Below are positions 8,426 to 45,185 of a stretch of DNA of 64,000 bases, in pieces (positions within the stretch are counted from its first letter, which is position 1; the number at the start of each line of letters is the position of its first letter). Origin of the DNA: a virus; IMG/VR virus record IMGVR_UViG_3300036466_000503, positions 2,705-66,704 of that record. One strand, given 5' to 3'. A model generated the notes under the pieces. It worked only from the letters and a program-made list of their open reading frames with translations. It had not been told where the DNA came from and did no database searches. A program made the translations under genes and the position numbers.

Positions 8426-11400
8426 TTGATCAGTTTGGAAGAACAAAAATTTGTAGCCCTCCACAACCATACTGCTAAGGGTTCGCTCTTAGATAGTATG
8501 GTTCGTGTTGAGGAGTTAACCAAAAAGGCAAAAGAGCTTGGTATGAAGTCTGTCGCAATTTCTGACCACGGAACACTTCATTCAATGGTTGATTTTTATA
8601 AGTCTGCACTTAATGAAGGTATAAAACCTATTTTTGCAGTTGAAATGTATATGGTTGAGGATATAAAAGTTAAAGATAAAAACGAGAAAAAAAGACACTT
8701 ATTATTAATAGCAAAAAACGAAAAGGGTTTTAAGAATTTATTTAAGTTAATTACTATTGGCAATGAACACTTTTACAAAAAACCTCAAATAGACTTTGAA
8801 ACCCTATTAAAATATAAAGAAGGATTAATTGTAGGAAGTGCCTGTATTGGTGGAAAAATTCCACAGCTTGCTTTAAAGAAAGATTTTCAGAATATGATGA
8901 ATGAAATAATTAAATATAAAAAAGCTTTTGGTGAAGATTTTTACCTTGAAATAATGGCAAATAAGCTAAAAGAGCAGTTATATGTAAATAAGGTATTGGT
9001 TAAAGCTTCAGAAAAAACAGGGGTAAAATTAATAGCAACAAACGATATTCACTATTTAAATAAAGAGGACTTTGAAACACACGATATAATGCTTGCAATA
9101 CAGACAAAAGCAAAACTAACAGACGAAAACAGATTTAGATTTGAAGCAAACGAGTTTTACCTAAAAGATTATGAAGAAATGAAAGCTGATTTATTTAATG
9201 GAGATAAAAGTTATGACAAATACGCTGAAAAAGCACTTAAAAATACTATTGAAGTAGCTGATAAAGTAGAGGAATTTGAATTGAAATTAGGAGAAACAAA
9301 CTTTCCCGATTATTTAGACTTACCTGATAAATATACTCCTGACGAATACTTAACAGGAATAGCAAACCACAGATTAAAGGGTTTGGCTAAAAATAAGAAT
9401 ATAAACTATAAGGAATATAAAGAAAGATTGGATTATGAATTGGATATTATCACAGCTAAAGGTTTTTCAACTTACTTTTTAGTTATTGCAGATATTGTAG
9501 GTTGGGGAAAGAAAAATGATTTACTTTTCGGATACGGTCGTGGGAGTGCGGGAAGTAGTTTGGTTTCATATTTACTTGGAATAATTGAAATAGATCCAAT
9601 TGAATATGATTTGGTATTTAGTAGATTTTTAAATAAAGAAAGAGATTCTTTACCTGACATCGATATCGACATAAGTAATCAAGCACGGGAAGAAGTTATT
9701 GAATATATAAAGAATAAATATGGTAAAGATTATGTAGCTCAAATCTGTACTTTTGGGACAATGAGTACAAAAGCAGTTTTAAAAGATGTGGGAAGAACAC
9801 TTGGCATAGATTTTATGGAGTTAAATAAAGGAATAGTTCCCTGTATTAAAGACGAGGCAGGCAGTTTATCTGAAGCATTAGAAATGAGCAGTAAACTTAG
9901 AGGTTATCAAAAGAAATATCCCAAACTCTTTGAACACGCTTTAAAATTAGAAGGTTTGCCACGACATTTGTCAAAACACGCAGGAGCAGTTGTTGTATCA
10001 CCAAAAAAAATTACAGATATAGTACCAATGTCCAATACTAAAGGAGATATGGTTACTCAAACTGAAATGCATGATAGTGAAGAGTTGGGATTATTAAAGA
10101 TTGACCTTTTAGGACTTAAAACATTGGATTTAGTAAAAAGAACAATTGACTTTATCGGGGAAAGAAAAGACTATGATAAATTGGATAAAAAAATATCAAC
10201 TAAGGGGTTAAAGAATTTAAGATTAGACGATCCAAAGGTATATAAATATATTTATGAAGAGGGAGACACAAGTGGAGTATTTCAGGTGGAGTCGAAACTT
10301 TTTAGAGGACTGCTTGAAAAAATGAAACCTGATGACTTTGAACACATTATAGCAATACTTGCACTTGGAAGACCTTCTATCTTGCAGGCTGATTTAGATA
10401 AAACATTTATTAAAAGAATGCACGGAGAAGAAGAAGTAGAATATCCACACGAAGACTTAAAACCAATTTTAGAAAATACTTTTGGAATTATGCTTTATCA
10501 GGAACAGGTTTTAAAGGTTGCTCAAAAAATTGCAGGGTTTAGTTTAGGTCGTGCTGATATACTTCGGAGAGCAATGGGAAAAAAGAAACCCGAAGTAATG
10601 GAAAAAATGAAAAAAGAGTTTATTGAAGGTTCTTTAGAAAATGGTTATACAAAAGAAAAGGCAGAAGAAATCTTTGAGTTAATAGAATACTTTGCAGGTT
10701 ATGGATTTAATAGGTGTTTAAGTGGAGATACTCTATTAGAAAAATCAAATAATGAAAAGTTATCAGTTAAAAATTTATACGATACCTGGCACGAAAAACA
10801 AAAAATAAATTTATTAAGCTTATCAAGTGATGGAAGAATAAGACCACGAAAAGTTAAAAATGTATTTAAAACAGGCAAGAAGAAATTATATAAAATCACA
10901 TTAGAAAACGGTCAGACAATCAAATCAAGTAAAGATCATAAATTTATGACTTCAAATAAAGAATGGAAAAGGTTATATCAGCTATCAGCAGGAGAAGAGC
11001 TTTTAGTTAAGGGAGATTATGAAGAAGAAAGTTATCCTATCATTCCAACTAAAATAATCAGCATTGAATATATTGGAGAAGAAATGACCTATGATATTGA
11101 AATGTACAGCGATAGTGAAAACGGACATAATTATATTGCAAACGATATTATAACCCACAATTCGCATTCGGCAGCTTATGCCAAACTATCATATACAACA
11201 GCCTATCTAAAATATTACTTTCCAACAGAATTTTACGCTTCCTTATTAACAATGGAATCAGATAAAACTCCTAAAGACAGCAATATCTCAAAGTATATGT
11301 CAGAGTGTTTTCAGAAAGAAATTAATATTAAACCTCCACACATCAATAAAAGTATTGAAGACTTTAATGTAGTTGACGGTGAAATAAGGTTTGGACTTAG

Positions 11401-13412: not shown

Positions 13413-14262
13413 TTTAAACGAGCTATCCAACATTAAAGGTATTGGTAAAAAAACAATTCAGAGAGTTAGAGAATATAAGCTAAAAAAAAAGGGTTATATA
13501 AGCAAATATAACCCTGATTTAAAACTTGATTTAAATTCGATAAATAATGGTGATTGTTTGGAATTAATGAACGGTATTCCTGATAAGAGTATAGATATGA
13601 TACTTGCAGATTTACCTTATGGAACAACAGCTTGTTCTTGGGATAGTGTTATTAATTTAGATAAATTGTGGTTGCAGTACGAAAGAGTTATAAAGGATAA
13701 CGGAGCAATAGTTTTGACAGCAAAACAACCTTTTACAACTGAATTGATTAACAGTAATAAAAATTTATTTAGGTACACTTGGGTTTGGGATAAAGTTATC
13801 TCCCCCAACTTTATGAACGCAAAAAAAATGCACTTAAATGGTTTTGAAGAAATATTAGTTTTTTATAAAGAGCTACCAACATATAATCCTCAAATGGAAG
13901 AAGGAAAACCATTTATAGACAAAAGAAGTGGAAAAGGCAGATTAAAACACAATATGTATGGAGATAAACCCAATTATAAAGAGCAAATAAATACAGGAGA
14001 AAGATATCCACGAGGAATAATTAAGTTTTCAGCAAGAAATAATAACCCTATCCACCCAACTCAAAAACCAATTGCTTTATTTGAATATCTTATAAAAACT
14101 TATACTAATAAAGGAGATACTATTCTTGATAATGTTTCAGGTAGCGGAACAACAGCAATTGCTTCAATCAATACTGATAGAAATTATATCTGTATTGAAA
14201 AAGAAAAAAAATATTATGATTTATCTATTAAGAGAGTTGAAGGGGTGAAGGTAAATGGATAA
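13402..14262 (+). CDS. N4-C/N6-A DNA methyltransferase (beta class) with N-terminal HhH motif
   Basis: GDCLE, ADLPYG, HPTQKP and DNVSGSGTT motifs. N-terminal LSNIKGIGKKT. Confidence 0.9.
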   Translation: MEINLNELSNIKGIGKKTIQRVREYKLKKKGYISKYNPDLKLDLNSINNGDCLELMNGIPDKSIDMILADLPYGTTACSWDSVINLDKLWLQYERVIKDNGAIVLTAKQPFTTELINSNKNLFRYTWVWDKVISPNFMNAKKMHLNGFEEILVFYKELPTYNPQMEEGKPFIDKRSGKGRLKHNMYGDKPNYKEQINTGERYPRGIIKFSARNNNPIHPTQKPIALFEYLIKTYTNKGDTILDNVSGSGTTAIASINTDRNYICIEKEKKYYDLSIKRVEGVKVNG

Positions 14263-14758
14263 AGAAAGAAGTGTTTATATTTTTGAAGATATTACGGAAG
14301 AGTTATCTGAAAAAATTATTAAGAAGTTAATAAAATTAGAAAATGAAAATGAAGAAAATGATATTAACCTTTATATCTCCTCTTTTGGAGGCTCTATAAT
14401 ATCTACTTTTGCAATATATGATTTTATTCAAAATATGAAATGTAAAGTTAATACTATTGCTATTGGAAAAGCAATGTCAGGAGCCTCCGTTCTTTTAATG
14501 GGTGGTACAGGGAAAAGATTAATATATCCAAACACAAGGATTATGATCCACGAGGTAAGTGCGGGTTATGGAAGCGAAAAAATTACAGATATTAATATAA
14601 AACATAAAGAAAGTATGTTTATAAATGACACATTAATTAACTTATATAGTAAACATACAAAAAAAACTAAGGAAGAAGTTAAAAAAGAGCTTAAAAGAAA
14701 TAGATATATGTCTGCCAAAGAAGCTGTGGAATATGGTTTGGCTGACGAAATTTTATAG
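14255..14758 (+). CDS. clpP: ClpP-family protease subunit
   Basis: LYISSFGGS, GKAMS75, IMIH99, SAKEAVEYGLAD. Confidence 0.9.
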   Translation: MDKERSVYIFEDITEELSEKIIKKLIKLENENEENDINLYISSFGGSIISTFAIYDFIQNMKCKVNTIAIGKAMSGASVLLMGGTGKRLIYPNTRIMIHEVSAGYGSEKITDINIKHKESMFINDTLINLYSKHTKKTKEEVKKELKRNRYMSAKEAVEYGLADEIL

Positions 14759-40231: not shown

Positions 40232-40825
40232 GTGTTTAAAGTGAAAGATTTTATTGTTTGCTTGGATTTTGGACACGGAGGAAAAGATGTCGGAGCAGTT
40301 GATAAAATAGGAGACGATGCAATTTATAAAGATAAATATTATACAGAAGAAAGTAGATTAGTTTTAAAAGTAGGATTAAAACTAAAAAAGAAACTTGAAG
40401 AAAAAACTAATTATAAAGTTATATTAACAAGAAAAGACGATAACTATTTAAAATTAAGTACAAGAACTCAAATAGCAAATAGAGCAAATGCAGATATTTT
40501 TGTATCTCTGCATGCAAATGCGTTCTTTAAAGCAAGCGTTAGTGGAATAGAGACACTTTTCTATCCCACTTCTAAGTTAGGAAGAAAGTTAGCAACAGAG
40601 CTTCAAATAGAAATGATTGAAAATACTGATGCAGTAGATAGGGGTATAAGAGAAAGAGACGATTTATATGTATTAAAACACACAGATATGCCTGCTGCCT
40701 TAGTAGAATTAGGGTTTATTACAAATACTCGAGAAGAAGAGTTTTTACAGAGTGAAAATTATCAGAATATTTTGATAAATTCTATAATTGATGGTATCAA
40801 CTCTTATTATGAGAGTACAAAATAA
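40232..40825 (+). CDS. Endolysin, N-acetylmuramoyl-L-alanine amidase (Amidase_3), catalytic domain only
   Basis: LDFGHGG, E, FVSLHANA and LVELGFITN motifs. Confidence 0.93.
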   Translation: MFKVKDFIVCLDFGHGGKDVGAVDKIGDDAIYKDKYYTEESRLVLKVGLKLKKKLEEKTNYKVILTRKDDNYLKLSTRTQIANRANADIFVSLHANAFFKASVSGIETLFYPTSKLGRKLATELQIEMIENTDAVDRGIRERDDLYVLKHTDMPAALVELGFITNTREEEFLQSENYQNILINSIIDGINSYYESTK

Positions 40826-40834
40826 AATAAAGGG

Positions 40835-41203
40835 GTGTTTAATTTGGCTTATCAAAGAGACAAGGACCTTATTAGAAAAAATGGAGATCCAATACCACAG
40901 TATTGGAATGATAAAGAACAAAAATTTGTTGAATACGAAGGTAAAGTTGGAATTATTGGAGAAACCGTTGCAGAACAAAAAAATAATACTAACGCTGATG
41001 TAAATAATGTATTAACATTTTCAGAACCAATAGAATTTGTCGAAATATATCATAATGAAAGTGGACTACAAACATTCGTGGTTAATGGTATCAGTCTTCA
41101 AATAGCAAGTGGTGGTTGGAGAAGTCCTGTTAGTAATACAAATGCAAGTGTTGAAGTAACAATACCTGAAGGAATAGTCTGTACGGTTGCAAGGTTAATA
41201 TAA
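40835..41203 (+). CDS. Hypothetical virion appendage protein
   Basis: NGDPIPQYW motif, beta-rich. Confidence 0.5.
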   Translation: MFNLAYQRDKDLIRKNGDPIPQYWNDKEQKFVEYEGKVGIIGETVAEQKNNTNADVNNVLTFSEPIEFVEIYHNESGLQTFVVNGISLQIASGGWRSPVSNTNASVEVTIPEGIVCTVARLI

Positions 41204-41216
41204 GGGAGGCGATTAA

Positions 41217-42647
41217 ATGGCTTTTGGATATAAGGGTGGAAGAGTTAGCATGAATAGAACAAAACTTCCAAGCGACTCCTCTTATTTTTCTAATGAAATA
41301 CTGAATCTGTTGGATTTAAACACACTTGATACCTCAGAGGTTACCAATTTAAATAGTGCTTTTTCATATAGTTGGGAGTTTAATCAACCACTAAATAATT
41401 GGGATACTTCAAATGTAATTAATATGAGCCGTATGTTTTATAACTCTGATATGTTCAATGGAGACATTACAACTTGGGATACTGCGAAAGTACAAGATAT
41501 GTCAGAAATGTTTAATGGTGCAATGATGTTTAATCAAGATTTAAGCAAGTGGGATTTTTCAAGTGTAAATACTATGTCAGGAATGTTTGATTATTCGGGA
41601 TTGTCTGATATTAATTACAATAAATTAGTTGAGAAATTGTATAGCCAAAAAAATGAATTAAATGAAAATGTAGAGCTTGGAGCAAAAAATACAGCAGTTG
41701 ATAATACTAATCGTTCTAAAAGATTAGAATTAATTAACGATAAAGGTTGGGTTTTAAAGGATAATTCTGTTGTAGTTACAGTTGTAGATAGAAACGGAAG
41801 ATTAATAAAAATTTCAAAAGACGGAGAAATAATAGAAGAAAAACAGTTAATTGATAGCGAAACTTACGGCAGTCATTTGGGAAGTTGTATTATGACAAGG
41901 GGAGAATATATATACCTCAATACAAACCAACGGTACCTTTTAAAGTTTGATTTTGACGGCAATTTATTGTATGAAAGACAGTTTTTAAGCCCTGTCAATA
42001 TTTTCGTAAACGAAGATAATGATGATATTTTTATATCTTATAACCTTTATATTGAAAAGATAAATGAAGATCTTTCTCAAATATGGAGGGTTAATATAGG
42101 CGAACCACTTACAGAAGTTGCCGTTGATTATAATAACCAATATATATATATAGCAACAGATGTAGGACAGGATAATTCTTTAATTATGCAATTTGATATG
42201 GAAGGAAATGAATTAAAGAGAAGTAATATTTATACCATTTTTCCGAAGGGGACAATAGTTGATAATGGGGGGAATATATATATTAGAGATTATTATGAAA
42301 GGATTCGAAAATACAATTCAAATTTTGTGTTGCAGTGGACTTTTACAGGTCATTCTGATTATATAGATAAAATAAAATATAATAATGGAAATTATATTTA
42401 TTCAGTAAGTAGAGATGCGACAGTTAAAAAAATCAGCACAAGCGGAAGTGAACGGTGGTCTTTCGGCGGTTTCTCTTCGGCAGTATCAAATTTAGATATT
42501 GACTTAAATGAATTTGTTTACGCTATTTCAAATCAACTAATATTAAAAAAGATTAGGCTTAATGGAGCAGAAGAATGGAGTCTTGATTTGGGTAGTGGTG
42601 GAGTAGATCATAATATGGTCGGTTTATCAGTCAATAATAAAATATAA
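41217..42647 (+). CDS. DUF285-repeat plus beta-propeller (WD40/PQQ-like) adhesin
   Basis: FNQPLNNWDTSNV repeats and cap, then WTFTGHSD...YSVSRDATVKKI blades. Confidence 0.8.
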   Translation: MAFGYKGGRVSMNRTKLPSDSSYFSNEILNLLDLNTLDTSEVTNLNSAFSYSWEFNQPLNNWDTSNVINMSRMFYNSDMFNGDITTWDTAKVQDMSEMFNGAMMFNQDLSKWDFSSVNTMSGMFDYSGLSDINYNKLVEKLYSQKNELNENVELGAKNTAVDNTNRSKRLELINDKGWVLKDNSVVVTVVDRNGRLIKISKDGEIIEEKQLIDSETYGSHLGSCIMTRGEYIYLNTNQRYLLKFDFDGNLLYERQFLSPVNIFVNEDNDDIFISYNLYIEKINEDLSQIWRVNIGEPLTEVAVDYNNQYIYIATDVGQDNSLIMQFDMEGNELKRSNIYTIFPKGTIVDNGGNIYIRDYYERIRKYNSNFVLQWTFTGHSDYIDKIKYNNGNYIYSVSRDATVKKISTSGSERWSFGGFSSAVSNLDIDLNEFVYAISNQLILKKIRLNGAEEWSLDLGSGGVDHNMVGLSVNNKI

Positions 42648-42660
42648 GGAGATGGTTTAA

Positions 42661-42852
42661 GTGATAGGATTAATGTTTAATGAAAGCAACAAGATAAAAC
42701 TTGTTCATTATTTTCCTGATAGTGTAGATTTTCAGTTTGATATGTTGGTAGAAAGCCTTCCTACTAAAGATCCTGCGAAAGAGGGTATGAAAGCAAACCT
42801 CTATCGTGATGAAAATGATAGTCTTTTTTGGAAGTACACAGAGGTTGTATAA
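42661..42852 (+). CDS. Small fibre-chaperone-like protein
   Basis: 63 aa after the adhesin. LP......A.LY......WKY pattern. Confidence 0.5.
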   Translation: MIGLMFNESNKIKLVHYFPDSVDFQFDMLVESLPTKDPAKEGMKANLYRDENDSLFWKYTEVV

Positions 42853-42865
42853 GGGGTGAATCAAA

Positions 42866-43069
42866 GTGGATAAAAATAATAACGGTTTTGACGATAAAAA
42901 AGAAGCTCAAATATCATATGGGCTTGCTGCAATTGGTATTATAATGTCTTTATGTGCAATGTTTATTTTTGAAGAGTTTCAGGTTGCACAAAATATGTTT
43001 TTTGCTTCAATGATACTTTCAGGTGGAAGAGATATTGTCAGCGGTCTAAAAATGATTATAAAGGGGTAG
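42866..43069 (+). CDS. Two-TM holin candidate
   Basis: Two hydrophobic segments, 67 aa, in the lysis region. Confidence 0.55.
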   Translation: MDKNNNGFDDKKEAQISYGLAAIGIIMSLCAMFIFEEFQVAQNMFFASMILSGGRDIVSGLKMIIKG

Positions 43070-43071
43070 TT

Positions 43072-43200
43072 ATGAATAAGAATATTAATAGGTGTACAGT
43101 TTACAGCCGTGTTGTTGGTTACCTTTCACCTGTTAACAATTGGAATGTAGGAAAAAAGGAAGAGTATAAAGACAGAAAAGAGTTTAATTTAAAGAAATAA
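43072..43200 (+). CDS. 42-aa stand-alone NrdD C-terminal glycyl-radical peptide (not in ORF track)
   Basis: MNKNINRCTVYSRVVGYLSPVNNWNVGKKEEYKDRKEFNLKK. RBS AAGGGG. Hairpin terminator at 43209-43232. Confidence 0.85.
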   Translation: MNKNINRCTVYSRVVGYLSPVNNWNVGKKEEYKDRKEFNLKK

Positions 43201-43240
43201 AATATATAAGGGGTAGTTTATTCTACCCCTTTAAAAAAGG

Positions 43241-43609
43241 GTGATAAAAATGTTTGAAAAAATAAAAAGTTATGCCCTGATAATACTGTCTGCTATTGTT
43301 GGTCTGTTGACGCTTGGAAAGTTTACAAAAAGCAATCAAAAAATTAAAAAGTCGCAAAAGAGAATAGAAGAAATAAATAAAAAAAATAAAGATAGTAAAG
43401 AAAAAGTAAAAGATATTGAAGAAGAAATAGAAAAGATAGATAAAAAAGATAATAATAAAAGGTTAGATAAATTAGAAAGACAAACTATCATATTGCAAAA
43501 AAGAAAAAAGAAGTTAAACGAAAAGCTAAAAGAATTAGAAGAAGAGGGTGTTAAAAGTGAAGAAGACATTAGTGTTGATACTGATTATTTTGATGATATT
43601 CTCAACTAA
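43241..43609 (+). CDS. N-terminal TM plus coiled-coil protein, i-spanin-like
   Basis: Hydrophobic N-terminus and long charged coiled coil. Confidence 0.55.
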   Translation: MIKMFEKIKSYALIILSAIVGLLTLGKFTKSNQKIKKSQKRIEEINKKNKDSKEKVKDIEEEIEKIDKKDNNKRLDKLERQTIILQKRKKKLNEKLKELEEEGVKSEEDISVDTDYFDDILN

Positions 43610-43994
43610 TATTAGTGTTTTTGCTTATCAGAAAACAGAAGAAGGGTTTACCTTTTCTCATGAAGAATTAAACCAAATGATTAATAGAATGAAAAAACAG
43701 GATAAAAAAATTGAGCTTCAGGATCAGAAAATAGATAACTTAGAAAAACAGCTATCTATCAGTAGAGAAACTAATGACCTTTTATTTCAGGACAAAGAGA
43801 ATTTAAAACAAAAAATTAATCTTTTAGAAAAAAGAGACAAAGAAAAAGATATTCAAATAGATTTATTAGAGCAAAAAGTAGAAGAAAAAGATCTCCAAAT
43901 AAGCGAATACAAAAGCCAGGCTTCTTTGGGTTATTCAGTAAAAATAGGAATTGTGGCTTTAGTTGGTGTTGTTGGTCTTAGTTTGATTAATTAA
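43548..43994 (+). CDS. Signal peptide, coiled coil and C-terminal TM protein, spanin-partner-like
   Basis: Overlaps the previous gene. VFA cleavage site. No Cys, so no lipobox. Confidence 0.5.
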   Translation: MLKVKKTLVLILIILMIFSTNISVFAYQKTEEGFTFSHEELNQMINRMKKQDKKIELQDQKIDNLEKQLSISRETNDLLFQDKENLKQKINLLEKRDKEKDIQIDLLEQKVEEKDLQISEYKSQASLGYSVKIGIVALVGVVGLSLIN

Positions 43995-44005
43995 AAAAGA
44001 AATTC

Positions 44006-44035
44006 AAGAGGGGGTTTTCCCCTCTCTTTTTTTTT
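44006..44035. terminator. Terminator between the convergent late and partition operons
   Basis: AGAGGGG-GTTTT-CCCCTCT followed by a T-run. Confidence 0.8.
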
Positions 44036-44486
44036 ACAAAAAAATCATATCGTCTGTAAAAAATTTTACAATAAGCATTCCTTCTTCATTTACATAGGAT
44101 TTATAATCAGCTAATTTAAAGTTTTCAGCCTTAGCTCTTAAATACAAAAAATCATATATTTCTTTGTCGGTTATAACCTTTTGTTTTCCTACATACTGTC
44201 CTTCTTCGGTGGTGTTTATCTTAAAGCTACTTGCATAGTCTGCTTTTTCTTTAAATAAACCTATTACAAAAGCATCTCTTTCTTCTTCATTTTCAACTCC
44301 AACCATAATATAAGGGTTATTATCAGCTTCCTCTATAAAATTATCGTGTTTTTCGTTTAAATCTTCAAGAAGGGAAGAGGTAAAATAAATAAACACTTTA
44401 TTATTTTCGTTTAATTCTACCCTTGCAAAAGTTGAAGTTGAGCCACCAATCCAATTGAATTTATATTTTTCTTTACTCATTTTCAA
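44034..44486 (-). CDS. Hypothetical protein, 4th gene of the ParM operon
   Basis: Overlaps the upstream gene. Weak similarity to 44473..44883. Confidence 0.65.
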   Translation of the reverse strand: MKMSKEKYKFNWIGGSTSTFARVELNENNKVFIYFTSSLLEDLNEKHDNFIEEADNNPYIMVGVENEEERDAFVIGLFKEKADYASSFKINTTEEGQYVGKQKVITDKEIYDFLYLRAKAENFKLADYKSYVNEEGMLIVKFFTDDMIFL

Positions 44487-44883
44487 CTTCCCCCTCTTTT
44501 AATGGTTCATTAAAATTAGTGTAAAATATATTATCAGAATGTTTTTTTATTTCATAGTGATATTTTTCTCCCTTTGGAACACCTGCAACCTCTGTTATTT
44601 TCTCAATTAACTTTATTCCATTAATCATTGCTCCAATACCATCAGAGGGTTGAGATATTTTTACAGCGTGTATTTCTTCAGGATCAGCTTCAGTAATATA
44701 CATTTCTTTTTTCTCTTCGTCTAAGGCTATTTTTACAAAATCAGCATTATTTATTTTATCTCTTAAAAAGGTTGAATTTAAATATATCTTATTGAAATTT
44801 TTATTACTTATTGAAACAAATGGTTTGTTAGGAGTGCTGCCTTGAGCAGAACTTTTAACTTTTTTTCTCCATTTAATAGCCAA
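44473..44883 (-). CDS. Hypothetical protein (possibly AbrB/MraZ-like fold), 3rd gene of the ParM operon
   Basis: PFVSIS...KIYLN...FVKIALDEEKKEMYI pattern. Confidence 0.6.
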   Translation of the reverse strand: MAIKWRKKVKSSAQGSTPNKPFVSISNKNFNKIYLNSTFLRDKINNADFVKIALDEEKKEMYITEADPEEIHAVKISQPSDGIGAMINGIKLIEKITEVAGVPKGEKYHYEIKKHSDNIFYTNFNEPLKEGEVENE

Positions 44884-44885
44884 TT

Positions 44886-45185
44886 TTATTTATCCCCCTT
44901 CTTTTTTAGAAAACCTTTTTCCATTAATTGAATTAATTTTTTATGGTTTTCTTCATTATTATTGATTATTTCCCCTTTTTTATCAGTATTTTGGAGTTTT
45001 TTTATCAACTCTTCATAAAAATATCCTTCTTCGTGCTTGTGGTATATTTTAAGGGCGTTCCTTATCAATTCGCTCTGTGGCATATTTTTTAATTTTTCTT
45101 TAATAAAATCCAATTCTTCCCTTGTCATATTATTTTCAGATATTCTTGCAGAAATAAGGAAGTGTTCAACTCTTTTTCTACTCAT
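44886..45185 (-). CDS. ParR/Alp7R-like adaptor (RHH)
   Basis: Coupled to ParM. Beta strand plus SELIRNAL helix. Confidence 0.65.
   Translation of the reverse strand: MSRKRVEHFLISARISENNMTREELDFIKEKLKNMPQSELIRNALKIYHKHEEGYFYEELIKKLQNTDKKGEIINNNEENHKKLIQLMEKGFLKKKGDK

What the first reader, a model, noticed from the sequence alone, without database searches (positions are those of the whole stretch)
43072..43200. Stand-alone 42-aa NrdD glycyl-radical peptide: candidate phage 'spare part' for anaerobic ribonucleotide reductase
Seen: an ORF below the track cut-off, with RBS and a downstream terminator, encodes YSRVVGYLSPVNNWNVGKKEEYKDR. Known: this is the R-V-x-G-Y glycyl-radical loop and W/F-N-x-GK-x-x-E-x-x-x-R tail of class III RNR (NrdD). 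O2 cleaves glycyl-radical enzymes at that Gly, and GrcA/YfiD (with a T4 homolog) repairs PFL in trans. No NrdD body or NrdG activase is present in the window. Inference: the phage supplies only the radical-bearing module, either to rescue or boost O2-damaged host NrdD, to complement a naturally split host NrdD, or to titrate NrdG. Its place in the late lysis cluster is odd for a nucleotide-metabolism gene.
Basis: partly seen in the sequence, partly recalled or inferred. Interest (0 to 1): 0.85.

Follow-up and report, generated by a model that had tools for sequence, protein, structure and literature searches.

The report
Phage gene for RNR radical peptide
A phage-plasmid from an oxygen-free habitat carries only the 42-residue, radical-bearing tip of the enzyme that makes DNA building blocks without oxygen; its likely hosts already encode that tip as a separate small protein, so the phage probably tops up this one fragile part.

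Summary
The 42-aa ORF at 43072-43200 is real. It matches the last 32 positions of the NrdD profile above Pfam's cut-off. The whole 66.7-kb virus record has no NrdD body, NrdG or radical-SAM gene.

It is not a remnant.
- In Halanaerobiales, Patescibacteria and others, class III RNR is naturally two-piece: a glycine-less body, NrdG and a ~45-aa peptide.
- Two phage contigs have the same split.
- 73 of 80 related viral records carry the peptide alone, including all 12 that are at least 90% complete.

The closest relative with the same lysis module has its holin-like and Rz-like genes abutting, so the peptide gene here is an insertion.

Core codons are under purifying selection. A complex model docks the phage peptide on a Halanaerobium body: score 0.78, best control 0.00. 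This may reflect memory of fused structures.

Best reading: the phage supplies an extra copy of the host's regular small radical subunit. Oxygen repair ("spare part") is not shown, and the host is only inferred.

I found no paper describing this. This scan has noted the split enzyme and lone phage copies before on other DNA.

The parts
43072..43200 (+). 42-aa gene for a lone NrdD-type glycyl-radical peptide (radical glycine = G16; conserved Cys = C8)
   Evidence: ORF. PF13597 E 1.1e-9, above cut-off, profile 531-562/562. 21 short homolog clusters with C8, Y11-Y17, P20, W24, N25, G27, K28, E31 and R35 invariant.
43061..43066 (+). Shine-Dalgarno-like AAGGGG, 5 nt before the ATG. It overlaps the end of the upstream gene, so translational coupling is possible.
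   Evidence: Read directly from the sequence.
43208..43231 (.). 9-bp-stem hairpin just after the stop codon. There is no T-run on the + strand, so at most a weak terminator or RNA-end stabiliser.
   Evidence: The terminator scan lists it on the minus strand only. Inverted repeat I5.
43061..43071 (+). First copy of an exact 11-nt direct repeat (AAGGGGTAGTT) that brackets the gene
   Evidence: the repeat finder family D7, spacing 147 nt. A two-copy short repeat may be chance.
43208..43218 (+). Second copy of the 11-nt direct repeat; also the 5' arm of the hairpin
   Evidence: the repeat finder family D7.
42866..43069 (+). Left border of the insertion: 67-aa ORF, called holin-like from its hydrophobic stretches only
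   Evidence: 53% identical over 66 aa (tblastx) to L188:3890-4087 in the related phage G154, where it directly abuts the Rz-like gene. No Pfam or PHROG family over threshold.
43250..43609 (+). Right border of the insertion: Rz-like spanin candidate. The likely start is the ATG at 43250, not the GTG at 43241.
   Evidence: phrog_1026 E 5.4e-7. 38% identity from residue 1 to L188:4106-4480.
40232..40825 (+). Endolysin of the same late lysis module (context)
   Evidence: Pfam Amidase_3 E 4.2e-50. 51% identical homolog in G154.

Best explanation
The gene encodes a working copy of the small, radical-bearing subunit of a two-piece class III (anaerobic) ribonucleotide reductase. It was captured from a host lineage in which the enzyme is naturally split, and inserted as a self-contained cassette between the holin-like and Rz-like genes of a phage-plasmid.

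Proposed mechanism:
1. The peptide is translated from the late/lysis transcript (inferred).
2. The host's NrdG activase converts its Gly16 to a glycyl radical (inferred; the phage has no activase).
3. It docks on the host's glycine-less NrdD body. Its N-terminal strand with Cys8 lies against the body's zinc ribbon and its Gly loop reaches into the barrel (modelled, not measured).
4. This raises or maintains the pool of active reductase, and so the dNTP supply for a phage that brings its own replisome but no reductase (inferred).

The peptide is the part that oxygen would cut and that a cell may need in excess, so a phage gains most per base by carrying only this part.

Shown here: homology; lone status; the natural split in likely hosts and in two phages; purifying selection; the insertion polymorphism.

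Not shown here: expression, activation, binding, any benefit, and the identity of the host.
For: 1. Identity. PF13597 over cut-off on the last 32 profile positions. The window peptide keeps every column that is invariant in 21 short homologs. It also keeps W24, N25, K28, E31 and R35, which are invariant in 141 peptide cores.

2. The peptide is a regular subunit elsewhere.
- Of 80 bacterial/archaeal loci, 68 have a body and/or NrdG beside the peptide ORF within the fetched flank.
- 54 bodies of at least 550 aa lack the Gly loop, against 2 fused.
- Example L084: body 680 aa, NrdG 236 aa, peptide 45 aa.
- 5 of 5 Halanaerobium genomes have one body (profile 1-531/533) plus one peptide (530-562) and no fused copy.
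- Phage contigs L008 and L019 are split at the same point.

3. Lone copies are the rule in viruses. 73 of 80 viral records hold only the tip, 2 are split and 5 are fused. All 12 records that are at least 90% complete are lone.

4. Family size. A profile of the short forms finds 4,901 representatives at E<=0.001. 149 of the best 150 are 42-192 aa long.

5. Selection. NG86 dN/dS on 28 core codons has a median of 0.151 for viral genes (54 distinct, 192 usable pairs) and 0.108 for bacterial genes (74 distinct, 925 pairs). Window versus L002: dN 0.071 with synonymous sites saturated.

6. Accessory insertion. None of 3 closest relatives by terminase (73, 73 and 61% identity) has any PF13597 piece, including an 87.7-kb record with terminal repeats. 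In that record the holin-like stop and the Rz-like start are 15 nt apart, against 180 nt here.

7. Docking. A Halanaerobium body alignment plus the phage peptide alignment plus Zn scored 0.78 in each of 3 runs, with the best of 3 controls at 0.00. That mark was reached by 58 of 80 solved complexes and 2 of 110 mismatched pairs. Contacts agree at 91% or more, and the partner's pLDDT is at least 78. Peptide C8 touches body C649 and C662, and peptide residues 8-12 pair with body residues 645-649.

8. Need. The phage encodes a DnaE-type polymerase and a DnaB-like helicase but no RNR.

9. Host lineage.
- The best bacterial matches of the peptide are mostly Halanaerobium/Halanaerobiales.
- 1 of 72 genomes of that order holds a syntenic terminase-portal block, 46% identity, E 4.7e-151.

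10. Demand for the peptide. 8 assemblies have a second peptide gene away from the operon, one of them on the same contig as the operon. Some of these sit in mraZ-mraW-[peptide]-ftsL-like or beside a deoxynucleoside kinase.
Against: - The host is inferred, not shown. No CRISPR-array context was found for 6 short DNA matches. The related phage block lies in a metagenome-assembled genome and could be mis-binned.
- The peptide is too short to say whether it came from a split or a fused gene. One fused NrdD (L128) is 79% identical over 29 residues.
- The gene sits at the very end of the late lysis module, a late time for a dNTP-supply gene.
- Promoter-like sites in the region are no more frequent than in shuffles: 28 against 29.4.
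- Close relatives do without it (0 of 3), so it is dispensable.
- Halanaerobium genomes also have a weak Ribonuc_red_lgC match in an ~805-aa frame, possibly another RNR class. Class III may therefore not be limiting.
- The complex pass may come from the model's memory of solved fused NrdD structures. Its listed confident contacts do not include the body's conserved Cys pair C382/C383.
- The loci used for conservation and dN/dS were retrieved with patterns taken from the motif itself, and my script picked cores by a motif. Invariance of S12, R13, G16 and Y17 is therefore partly by construction.
Confidence: 0.55

Rival explanations
1. True spare part. The selective reason for the phage copy is repair: after oxygen exposure cuts the radical-bearing chain, the phage peptide replaces the damaged tip and restores activity, as GrcA does for pyruvate formate-lyase. 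It could act on the host's split enzyme, or even on an O2-truncated fused NrdD.
For: - It is a stand-alone radical-glycine module encoded away from any enzyme.
- In a split enzyme, oxygen damage would fall on the 42-45-aa chain and leave the 680-aa body whole. This is an inference from the known scission of glycyl radical enzymes at the radical Gly (passages of PMC13450708).
- Cells with the split enzyme keep second copies elsewhere.
- The only run holding this DNA is labelled as a shale gas metagenome (laid; it may be the source). Whether that habitat sees oxygen pulses is my own recollection, not a result.
Against: - No oxidative-stress gene lies beside it in the window.
- No conserved neighbour was found across 65 lone viral loci; the largest shared neighbour cluster spans 6 loci.
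- Where the body has no tip of its own, the small chain is the regular part, so 'spare' adds an untested claim of exchange.
- No homology to the PFL-type domain of GrcA: the Pfam scan at E<=1 gave only PF13597.
- A later check of a sister finding of this scan priced this reading low.
Confidence: 0.15
2. Decoy or regulator. The phage peptide competes with the host peptide for NrdG or for the body. It thereby lowers or reprograms host class III RNR activity, for example to halt host replication or to exclude other phages.
For: A small mimic of a subunit is a common phage strategy (general knowledge). Its position in a lysis/accessory module rather than with replication genes fits a non-metabolic role.
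Against: - The radical Gly and all other conserved residues are kept. Viral dN/dS (0.151) is close to bacterial dN/dS (0.108), with no sign of a changed constraint.
- A phage that brings a replisome but no RNR would starve itself.
- The window peptide differs from cellular peptides only at variable columns: 9, 22-23 and 26.
Confidence: 0.1
3. Neutral passenger or decaying remnant. The ORF is a recently captured scrap of host DNA, or what is left of a phage nrdD. It has no function in this phage.
For: It is absent from the 3 closest relatives. It is very short. No expression evidence could be obtained.
Against: - Intact start, RBS and stop.
- dN 0.071 with saturated synonymous sites against the nearest phage copies.
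- Lone copies sit in 12 of 12 near-complete viral genomes among the records examined.
- The in-frame stretch upstream has a stop 33 codons before the ATG. That stretch overlaps the conserved holin-like gene, which is read in another frame.
- No nrdD lies at the syntenic place in the relative.
Confidence: 0.07
4. Partner other than RNR. The peptide is activated by a radical-SAM enzyme but serves another protein, or is itself a radical or redox effector.
For: Some viral homologs carry long extra N- or C-terminal regions of unknown role, with frames of 100-263 aa.
Against: The sequence is nearly the same as peptides that sit in nrdD-nrdG operons. The model places it confidently on an NrdD body, and not on an unrelated 759-aa control.
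Confidence: 0.05

Closest known systems
Canonical single-chain class III RNR, NrdD with its activase NrdG (e.g. Thermotoga maritima NrdD, PDB 4COI/4U3E; E. coli and phage T4 enzymes recalled from memory)
   Same: The 42 residues align to the extreme C-terminus that carries the radical glycine. Fused relatives in the fetched loci end with the same motif (L042, L128).
   Different: Here the tip is a separate gene, and the catalytic body, zinc ribbon and activase are absent from the whole virus record. The NCBIfam equivalog cut-off is missed by far: 37 bits against 326.
Two-piece class III RNR of Halanaerobiales, Patescibacteria, Synergistota-type genomes and phage contigs L008/L019
   Same: Same length, same start a few residues before the conserved Cys, same conserved residues. 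The model places it on a Halanaerobium body.
   Different: Those peptides sit beside a glycine-less nrdD and nrdG. This one stands alone in a phage lysis module.
GrcA/YfiD, the autonomous glycyl-radical 'spare part' of pyruvate formate-lyase (passages of PMC13450708; PMC8683613 seen as listing and abstract start). A phage T4 homologue is recalled and named in earlier scan notes.
   Same: A small stand-alone protein carrying only a radical-glycine module, with a phage-borne version.
   Different: - GrcA is related to the PFL domain, not to NrdD; Pfam gives only PF13597 here.
- Its target enzyme is fused and has its own tip.
- Rescue after O2 damage is shown by experiment for GrcA and not at all here.
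- The 2026 review states that spare parts are known only for formate lyases.
Split RNR genes already described: class II NrdJa/NrdJb of Pseudomonas aeruginosa (PMC4520616, listing and abstract start); phage nrdA-a/nrdA-b of Aeh1, nrdJ of phiYS40, and intron- or intein-interrupted nrdD (passages of PMC3653736)
   Same: RNR catalytic chains can work as two polypeptides, and phages carry such splits.
   Different: Those splits cut the body or are spliced out. None detaches the radical glycine, and none describes a phage carrying only the small piece.
Phage auxiliary metabolic genes that supply one damage-prone subunit, such as cyanophage psbA (recalled, not searched)
   Same: By analogy: the virus carries only the high-turnover part of a host machine.
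   Different: Unrelated protein and process. Turnover of the RNR peptide is not measured.

Membership tests
NrdD, class III RNR catalytic subunit (Pfam PF13597; NCBIfam TIGR02487) | Profile match above Pfam's gathering score | tested here: met
   37.9 bits against 26.2, E 1.1e-9, but only profile positions 531-562 of 562.
NrdD, class III RNR catalytic subunit (Pfam PF13597; NCBIfam TIGR02487) | Full-length equivalog score | tested here: not met
   TIGR02487 gives 37 bits against a cut-off of 326.35. All 7 NCBIfam NrdD models are matched only at their last ~30 positions.
NrdD, class III RNR catalytic subunit (Pfam PF13597; NCBIfam TIGR02487) | Catalytic barrel with active-site cysteines and C-terminal zinc ribbon | tested here: not met
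   There is a single PF13597 match in the whole 66.7-kb record. tblastn with a phage NrdD body finds nothing in the window.
NrdD, class III RNR catalytic subunit (Pfam PF13597; NCBIfam TIGR02487) | Radical glycine in the conserved loop near the C-terminus | tested here: met
   G16 lies in SRVVGY. It aligns with the T. maritima NrdD loop and is invariant in 21 of 21 short homologs.
Detached small subunit of a two-piece class III RNR (unnamed) | ORF of about 40-60 aa that starts a few residues before the conserved Cys and keeps the conserved core | tested here: met
   42 aa with C8. Cellular peptides are 41-83 aa with the same core.
Detached small subunit of a two-piece class III RNR (unnamed) | Encoded beside a glycine-less nrdD body and nrdG | tested here: not met
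   No body, NrdG or radical-SAM gene in the window or in the record. The gene is lone.
Detached small subunit of a two-piece class III RNR (unnamed) | A model places it on a glycine-less body, above controls | tested here: met
   Score 0.78 in 3 runs against 0.00 for the best of 3 controls. That mark was reached by 58 of 80 solved and 2 of 110 mismatched pairs. Contacts agree at 91% or more, partner pLDDT at least 78. The pass may be memory of fused structures, so it supports binding and does not show it.
Detached small subunit of a two-piece class III RNR (unnamed) | Activated by NrdG and supports nucleotide reduction | not testable with these tools
   Needs anaerobic biochemistry and EPR.
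GrcA/YfiD-type spare-part protein | Homology to the PFL-type glycyl-radical domain | tested here: not met
   The Pfam scan at E<=1 returned only PF13597 for this ORF.
GrcA/YfiD-type spare-part protein | Restores activity to an oxygen-cleaved enzyme | not testable with these tools
The 2026 review says no such protein is known outside formate lyases.
Phage auxiliary metabolic gene / moron | Host-type metabolic gene in a phage that lacks the rest of the pathway | tested here: met
   Searches show the absences. 73 of 80 related viral records are likewise lone.
Phage auxiliary metabolic gene / moron | Presence/absence polymorphism at a fixed junction among related phages | tested here: met
   In G154 the holin-like and Rz-like genes are 15 nt apart; here they are 180 nt apart with the ORF between them. 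None of 3 relatives has any NrdD piece.
Phage auxiliary metabolic gene / moron | Own expression signals | tested here: inconclusive
   An RBS is present. Promoter-like sites are not enriched, 28 against 29.4 in shuffles. The hairpin has no T-run on the coding strand.

The most novel reading that the evidence does not exclude
The detached ~45-residue chain is an exchangeable, consumable radical cartridge of anaerobic ribonucleotide reductase. Oxygen destroys only the cartridge, and cells reload the intact body from several gene copies. Phages have learnt to carry just the cartridge, to keep or seize control of host dNTP synthesis. That would be the first spare-part system outside pyruvate formate-lyase, and the first radical cofactor-protein traded between viruses and hosts.
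Probability: 0.15. Interest if true: 0.85.

Novelty: new variant of a known kind. Interest (0 to 1): 0.7.

Why it matters
Class III RNR is treated in the papers I read as one chain that carries its own radical glycine. The 2026 review of glycyl radical enzymes says it is still open whether spare-part proteins exist outside pyruvate formate-lyase.

A 42-45-residue protein that carries the radical, is encoded apart from the body, and recurs alone in complete phage genomes makes that question directly testable. The test system is very small: body, NrdG and peptide.

It would also change annotation.
- The glycine-less bodies look truncated, and the peptides fall below gene-calling cut-offs. Anaerobic dNTP synthesis is therefore likely mis-scored in Halanaerobiales, Patescibacteria and many viromes.
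- A profile of the short forms finds 4,901 representatives at 50% identity.

For phage biology it would be the smallest auxiliary metabolic gene I can name. It would also show a virus investing in the single most fragile part of a host enzyme.

Tried and rejected
- Deletion remnant: rejected.

- Hidden body or activase elsewhere in the phage: rejected for the record as held. CheckV rates the record 39% complete, although it has direct terminal repeats.

- Conserved partner gene next to lone viral copies: none. The largest neighbour cluster covers 6 of 65 loci.

- Relatives through the DUF285/propeller protein: only 7 distant domain hits, of no use for synteny.

- Deposited phages (INPHARED, tblastn): only 3 records. 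PhiF1 has a full-length NrdD of 596 aa by its CDS coordinates, ANMV-1 has a 144-aa CDS annotated as anaerobic RNR, and one record is unannotated.

- Longer relatives of the window peptide: 2 proteins of 96 and 107 aa, and no full-length one sharing words. This is weak evidence, by the tool's own warning.

- Host by terminase in 5 Halanaerobium genomes: 0 of 5.

- Host by CRISPR. The DNA search of 72 genomes of the order gave mostly dnaE-like matches at 64-71% identity, plus short 25-35-nt matches. I fetched 6 of the short-match places out of the many listed and found no repeat arrays. I take them as chance.

- tRNA genes for a host hint: none in the window.

- Expression: no RNA holder listed for window 41000-45000. 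One DNA run holds it, and it may be the source. Its contigs show presence only.

- Literature. Seven searches (and the passages) found no description of a detached NrdD radical peptide or of a phage copy. The library lacks most subscription journals, and supplements were closed.

Full report
WHAT IS THERE

The ORF at 43072-43200 (+) encodes MNKNINRCTVYSRVVGYLSPVNNWNVGKKEEYKDRKEFNLKK. AAGGGG ends 5 nt before its ATG. The stop of the upstream ORF lies 2 nt before the ATG.

The peptide matches the very end of NrdD:
- Pfam PF13597: E 1.1e-9, 37.9 bits against a cut-off of 26.2, profile 531-562 of 562.
- TIGR02487: positions 550-580 of 581, at 37 bits. This is far under the full-length cut-off of 326.
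- phrog_487: E 8.2e-5.

The window is bases 2705-66704 of a 66,704-bp virus record with direct terminal repeats. PF13597 matches it once only. A Halanaerobium NrdG and Pfam Radical_SAM match nothing in it.

The hairpin after the stop (43208-43231) has its T-run on the other strand.

An exact 11-nt repeat, AAGGGGTAGTT, brackets the ORF.

The surroundings are a late lysis module:
- Amidase_3 endolysin at 40232-40825.
- A 67-aa hydrophobic ORF at 42866-43069 with no family match.
- An Rz-like protein downstream (phrog_1026).

The element also has a ParM-type partition protein, a DnaE-type polymerase, a DnaB-like helicase, a terminase and a tape measure. It is a phage-plasmid with its own replisome and no ribonucleotide reductase.

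THE PEPTIDE IS A REGULAR SUBUNIT ELSEWHERE

A word-indexed search found 21 clusters of 40-66-aa homologs. C8, Y11-Y17, P20, W24, N25, G27, K28, E31 and R35 are invariant in them.

A scan of one genome per species found 201 relatives. The best 80 loci are mostly Halanaerobium/Halanaerobiales, several Patescibacteria groups, MAGs labelled Gammaproteobacteria, Synergistaceae/Thermovirgaceae and one Parvarchaeota.

My script found the motif in 77 of these 80 loci. 74 of the frames are 41-83 aa from stop to stop, and 3 are long: L128, L136 and L161.

Local tblastn with a phage NrdD body and NrdG gave the following:
- 68 of the 80 loci have a body and/or NrdG in the fetched flank.
- In Halanaerobiales the order is body - nrdG - peptide.
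- In the Patescibacteria-type loci the order is body - peptide - nrdG.

Of the bodies of at least 550 aa, 54 end shortly after the zinc-ribbon CPxC without any Gly loop, and 2 are fused.

In L084 the three genes encode 680, 236 and 45 aa.

In 5 of 5 Halanaerobium genomes PF13597 finds one body (profile 1 to 531-533), one peptide (530-562) about 0.9 kb downstream, and no fused copy. These genomes also have a weak Ribonuc_red_lgC match in an ~805-aa frame. Class III is therefore not shown to be their only RNR.

PHAGES

The same scan of IMG/VR found 394 relatives. I examined the best 80 records over their whole length with PF13597:
- 73 hold only the tip.
- 2 are split.
- 5 are fused.
- All 12 records rated at least 90% complete hold only the tip.

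The two split records:
- L008 (a 203-kb record): an intein-bearing body of 1013 aa without Gly loop, then three genes, the last an NrdG-like radical-SAM protein, then a 45-aa peptide.
- L019: a 49-aa peptide gene directly upstream of a 1015-aa glycine-less body.

A profile of the short forms against 1.84 billion representatives gave 4,901 hits at E<=0.001 and 1,730 at E<=1e-10. 149 of the best 150 are 42-192 aa and one is 711 aa.

No neighbour gene recurs around the lone viral copies. The largest cluster covers 6 of 65 loci.

THIS COPY IS AN INSERTION, NOT A REMNANT

The three closest relatives by terminase (73, 73 and 61% identity) have no PF13597 piece at all. One of them is an 87.7-kb record with terminal repeats, G154.

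G154 has the same module:
- An endolysin, 51% identical.
- A 66-aa homolog of the 67-aa ORF, 53% identical.
- Directly after it, the Rz-like gene, 38% identical from residue 1.

In G154 the stop of the first and the start of the second are 15 nt apart. In the window they are 180 nt apart, with the peptide ORF, its RBS and the hairpin in between.

The frame upstream of the ATG has a stop 33 codons back. That stretch belongs to the conserved 67-aa gene, which is read in another frame.

SELECTION

On 28 core codons the NG86 dN/dS medians are:
- 0.151 among 54 distinct viral genes (192 usable pairs).
- 0.108 among 74 distinct bacterial genes (925 usable pairs).

Against its nearest phage copies the window gene has dN 0.071 with synonymous sites saturated.

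Caveat: the loci were retrieved with motif patterns, and the script picked cores by a motif. The invariance of S12, R13, G16 and Y17 is therefore partly built in. W24, N25, K28, E31 and R35 were not in my script's pattern, though the retrieval patterns touch some of them.

DOCKING

I aligned 24 intein-free glycine-less bodies, with L084 first. I submitted that alignment with the peptide alignment (window peptide first) and a zinc ion. The result:
- Score 0.78 in each of three runs; the best of three controls was 0.00.
- The mark was reached by 58 of 80 solved complexes and 2 of 110 mismatched pairs.
- The runs agree in at least 91% of their contacts, and the partner's pLDDT is at least 78.
- The most certain contacts put peptide residues 8-12 against body residues 645-649, and C8 against C649 and C662 of the zinc ribbon.

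This suggests that the invariant Cys helps to clamp the peptide at the zinc site. That is an inference from a model.

Solved fused NrdD structures exist, so the pass may be memory. It shows likeness, not binding. The list of confident contacts does not name the body's conserved Cys pair C382/C383.

HOST

This is circumstantial.
- The peptide's best cellular matches are mostly Halanaerobiales.
- One of 72 genomes of that order, G050, holds a terminase 46% identical over its full length, with syntenic neighbours.
- That block has 28.1% G+C, against 29.0% for the window and 35-36% for Halanaerobium loci.
- The one public run that holds the DNA is labelled as a shale gas metagenome and may be its source.
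- Short DNA matches in the order's genomes were not in repeat arrays, in 6 places checked.

READING

The best-supported explanation is that the phage carries an extra copy of the regular small subunit of its host's two-piece class III RNR. The host's NrdG would activate it, and it would be used on the host's body.

Why only this part? It is tiny. It is the chain that carries the radical, so it would be the one cut by oxygen. Cells themselves keep more than one copy:
- 8 assemblies have a second peptide gene away from the operon.
- Three such genes lie in mraZ-mraW-[peptide]-ftsL-like (L099, L102, L156).
- Others lie next to a deoxynucleoside kinase (L137).

The repair ('spare part') reading, the decoy reading and the neutral-passenger reading remain as rivals.

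Points against my reading:
- The late position in the genome.
- No sign of an own promoter.
- Dispensability in relatives.
- The unproven host.

KNOWN OR NEW

The phage RNR survey describes nrdD split only by introns, inteins or homing endonucleases (passages).

A split class II RNR is in print (listing).

Seven searches found no detached NrdD radical peptide. Supplements were closed, and subscription journals are mostly missing from the library.

Earlier agents of this scan reported the split enzyme and lone phage copies on other DNA. A later check of one of those reports priced the spare-part claim low. I re-derived the split and the lone copies here from my own calls.

- The insertion polymorphism against a syntenic relative.
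- The count of 12 of 12 near-complete lone genomes.
- The docking of a phage peptide on a cellular body.

Noticed in passing
L161:3820-4878: The NrdG-like gene and the radical peptide lie in one 352-aa open frame without a stop. This could be an activase-peptide fusion or a sequencing error.
   Followed up: no
L008:1195-4236; L019:3378-6425; many bodies in L086-L146: NrdD bodies of 860-1544 aa carry large insertions. In L008 the insertion sits inside the conserved SMCC-RLRLD stretch, like an intein. Bodies in the Halanaerobium loci L095, L106 and L129 are 1143-1544 aa long.
   Followed up: partly
L099:6012, L102:6015, L156:6015; L137:6015, L130, L155: Second peptide genes occur in genomes that also have the nrdD operon. 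Some lie between mraZ-mraW and an FtsL/DivIC-like gene (cell-division cluster). Others lie between a deoxynucleoside kinase and a SpoIID-domain protein.
   Followed up: partly
L081:5794-6585; L005, L024, L025, L027, L032, L060, L070, L074, L077, L078: Some viral homologs are longer. One has a ~200-aa C-terminal extension after the peptide. A group of ~90-157-aa frames has an N-terminal extension ending in a shared N-[YF]-[QR]-x-C before the radical motif.
   Followed up: no
L167:2195-2629 (ANMV-1 virus): A deposited archaeal virus has a 144-aa CDS annotated 'anaerobic ribonucleoside triphosphate reductase' whose end matches the window peptide at 59.5% identity. It is a short form already in GenBank under a full-enzyme name.
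   Followed up: partly
window 43241-43609: The Rz-like gene more likely starts at the ATG at 43250 than at the GTG at 43241. The G154 homolog aligns from that Met.
   Followed up: yes
window 14255-14758 and L003:2835-3314: The ClpP-like gene of the window has a 58% identical homolog in L003. L003 also carries a 78% identical lone peptide about 2.7 kb downstream, in a context different from the window's.
   Followed up: no
window 9547-10715: The phage DnaE-type polymerase gene is 64-71% identical at the DNA level to genes in many genomes of the Halanaerobiales order. No control order was searched, so this is not host evidence yet.
   Followed up: no
L143:607 and 716-1285: In a Bacteroidales MAG contig a lone peptide gene sits directly upstream of a phage head-tail connector gene, so this is probably another phage-borne copy.
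   Followed up: partly
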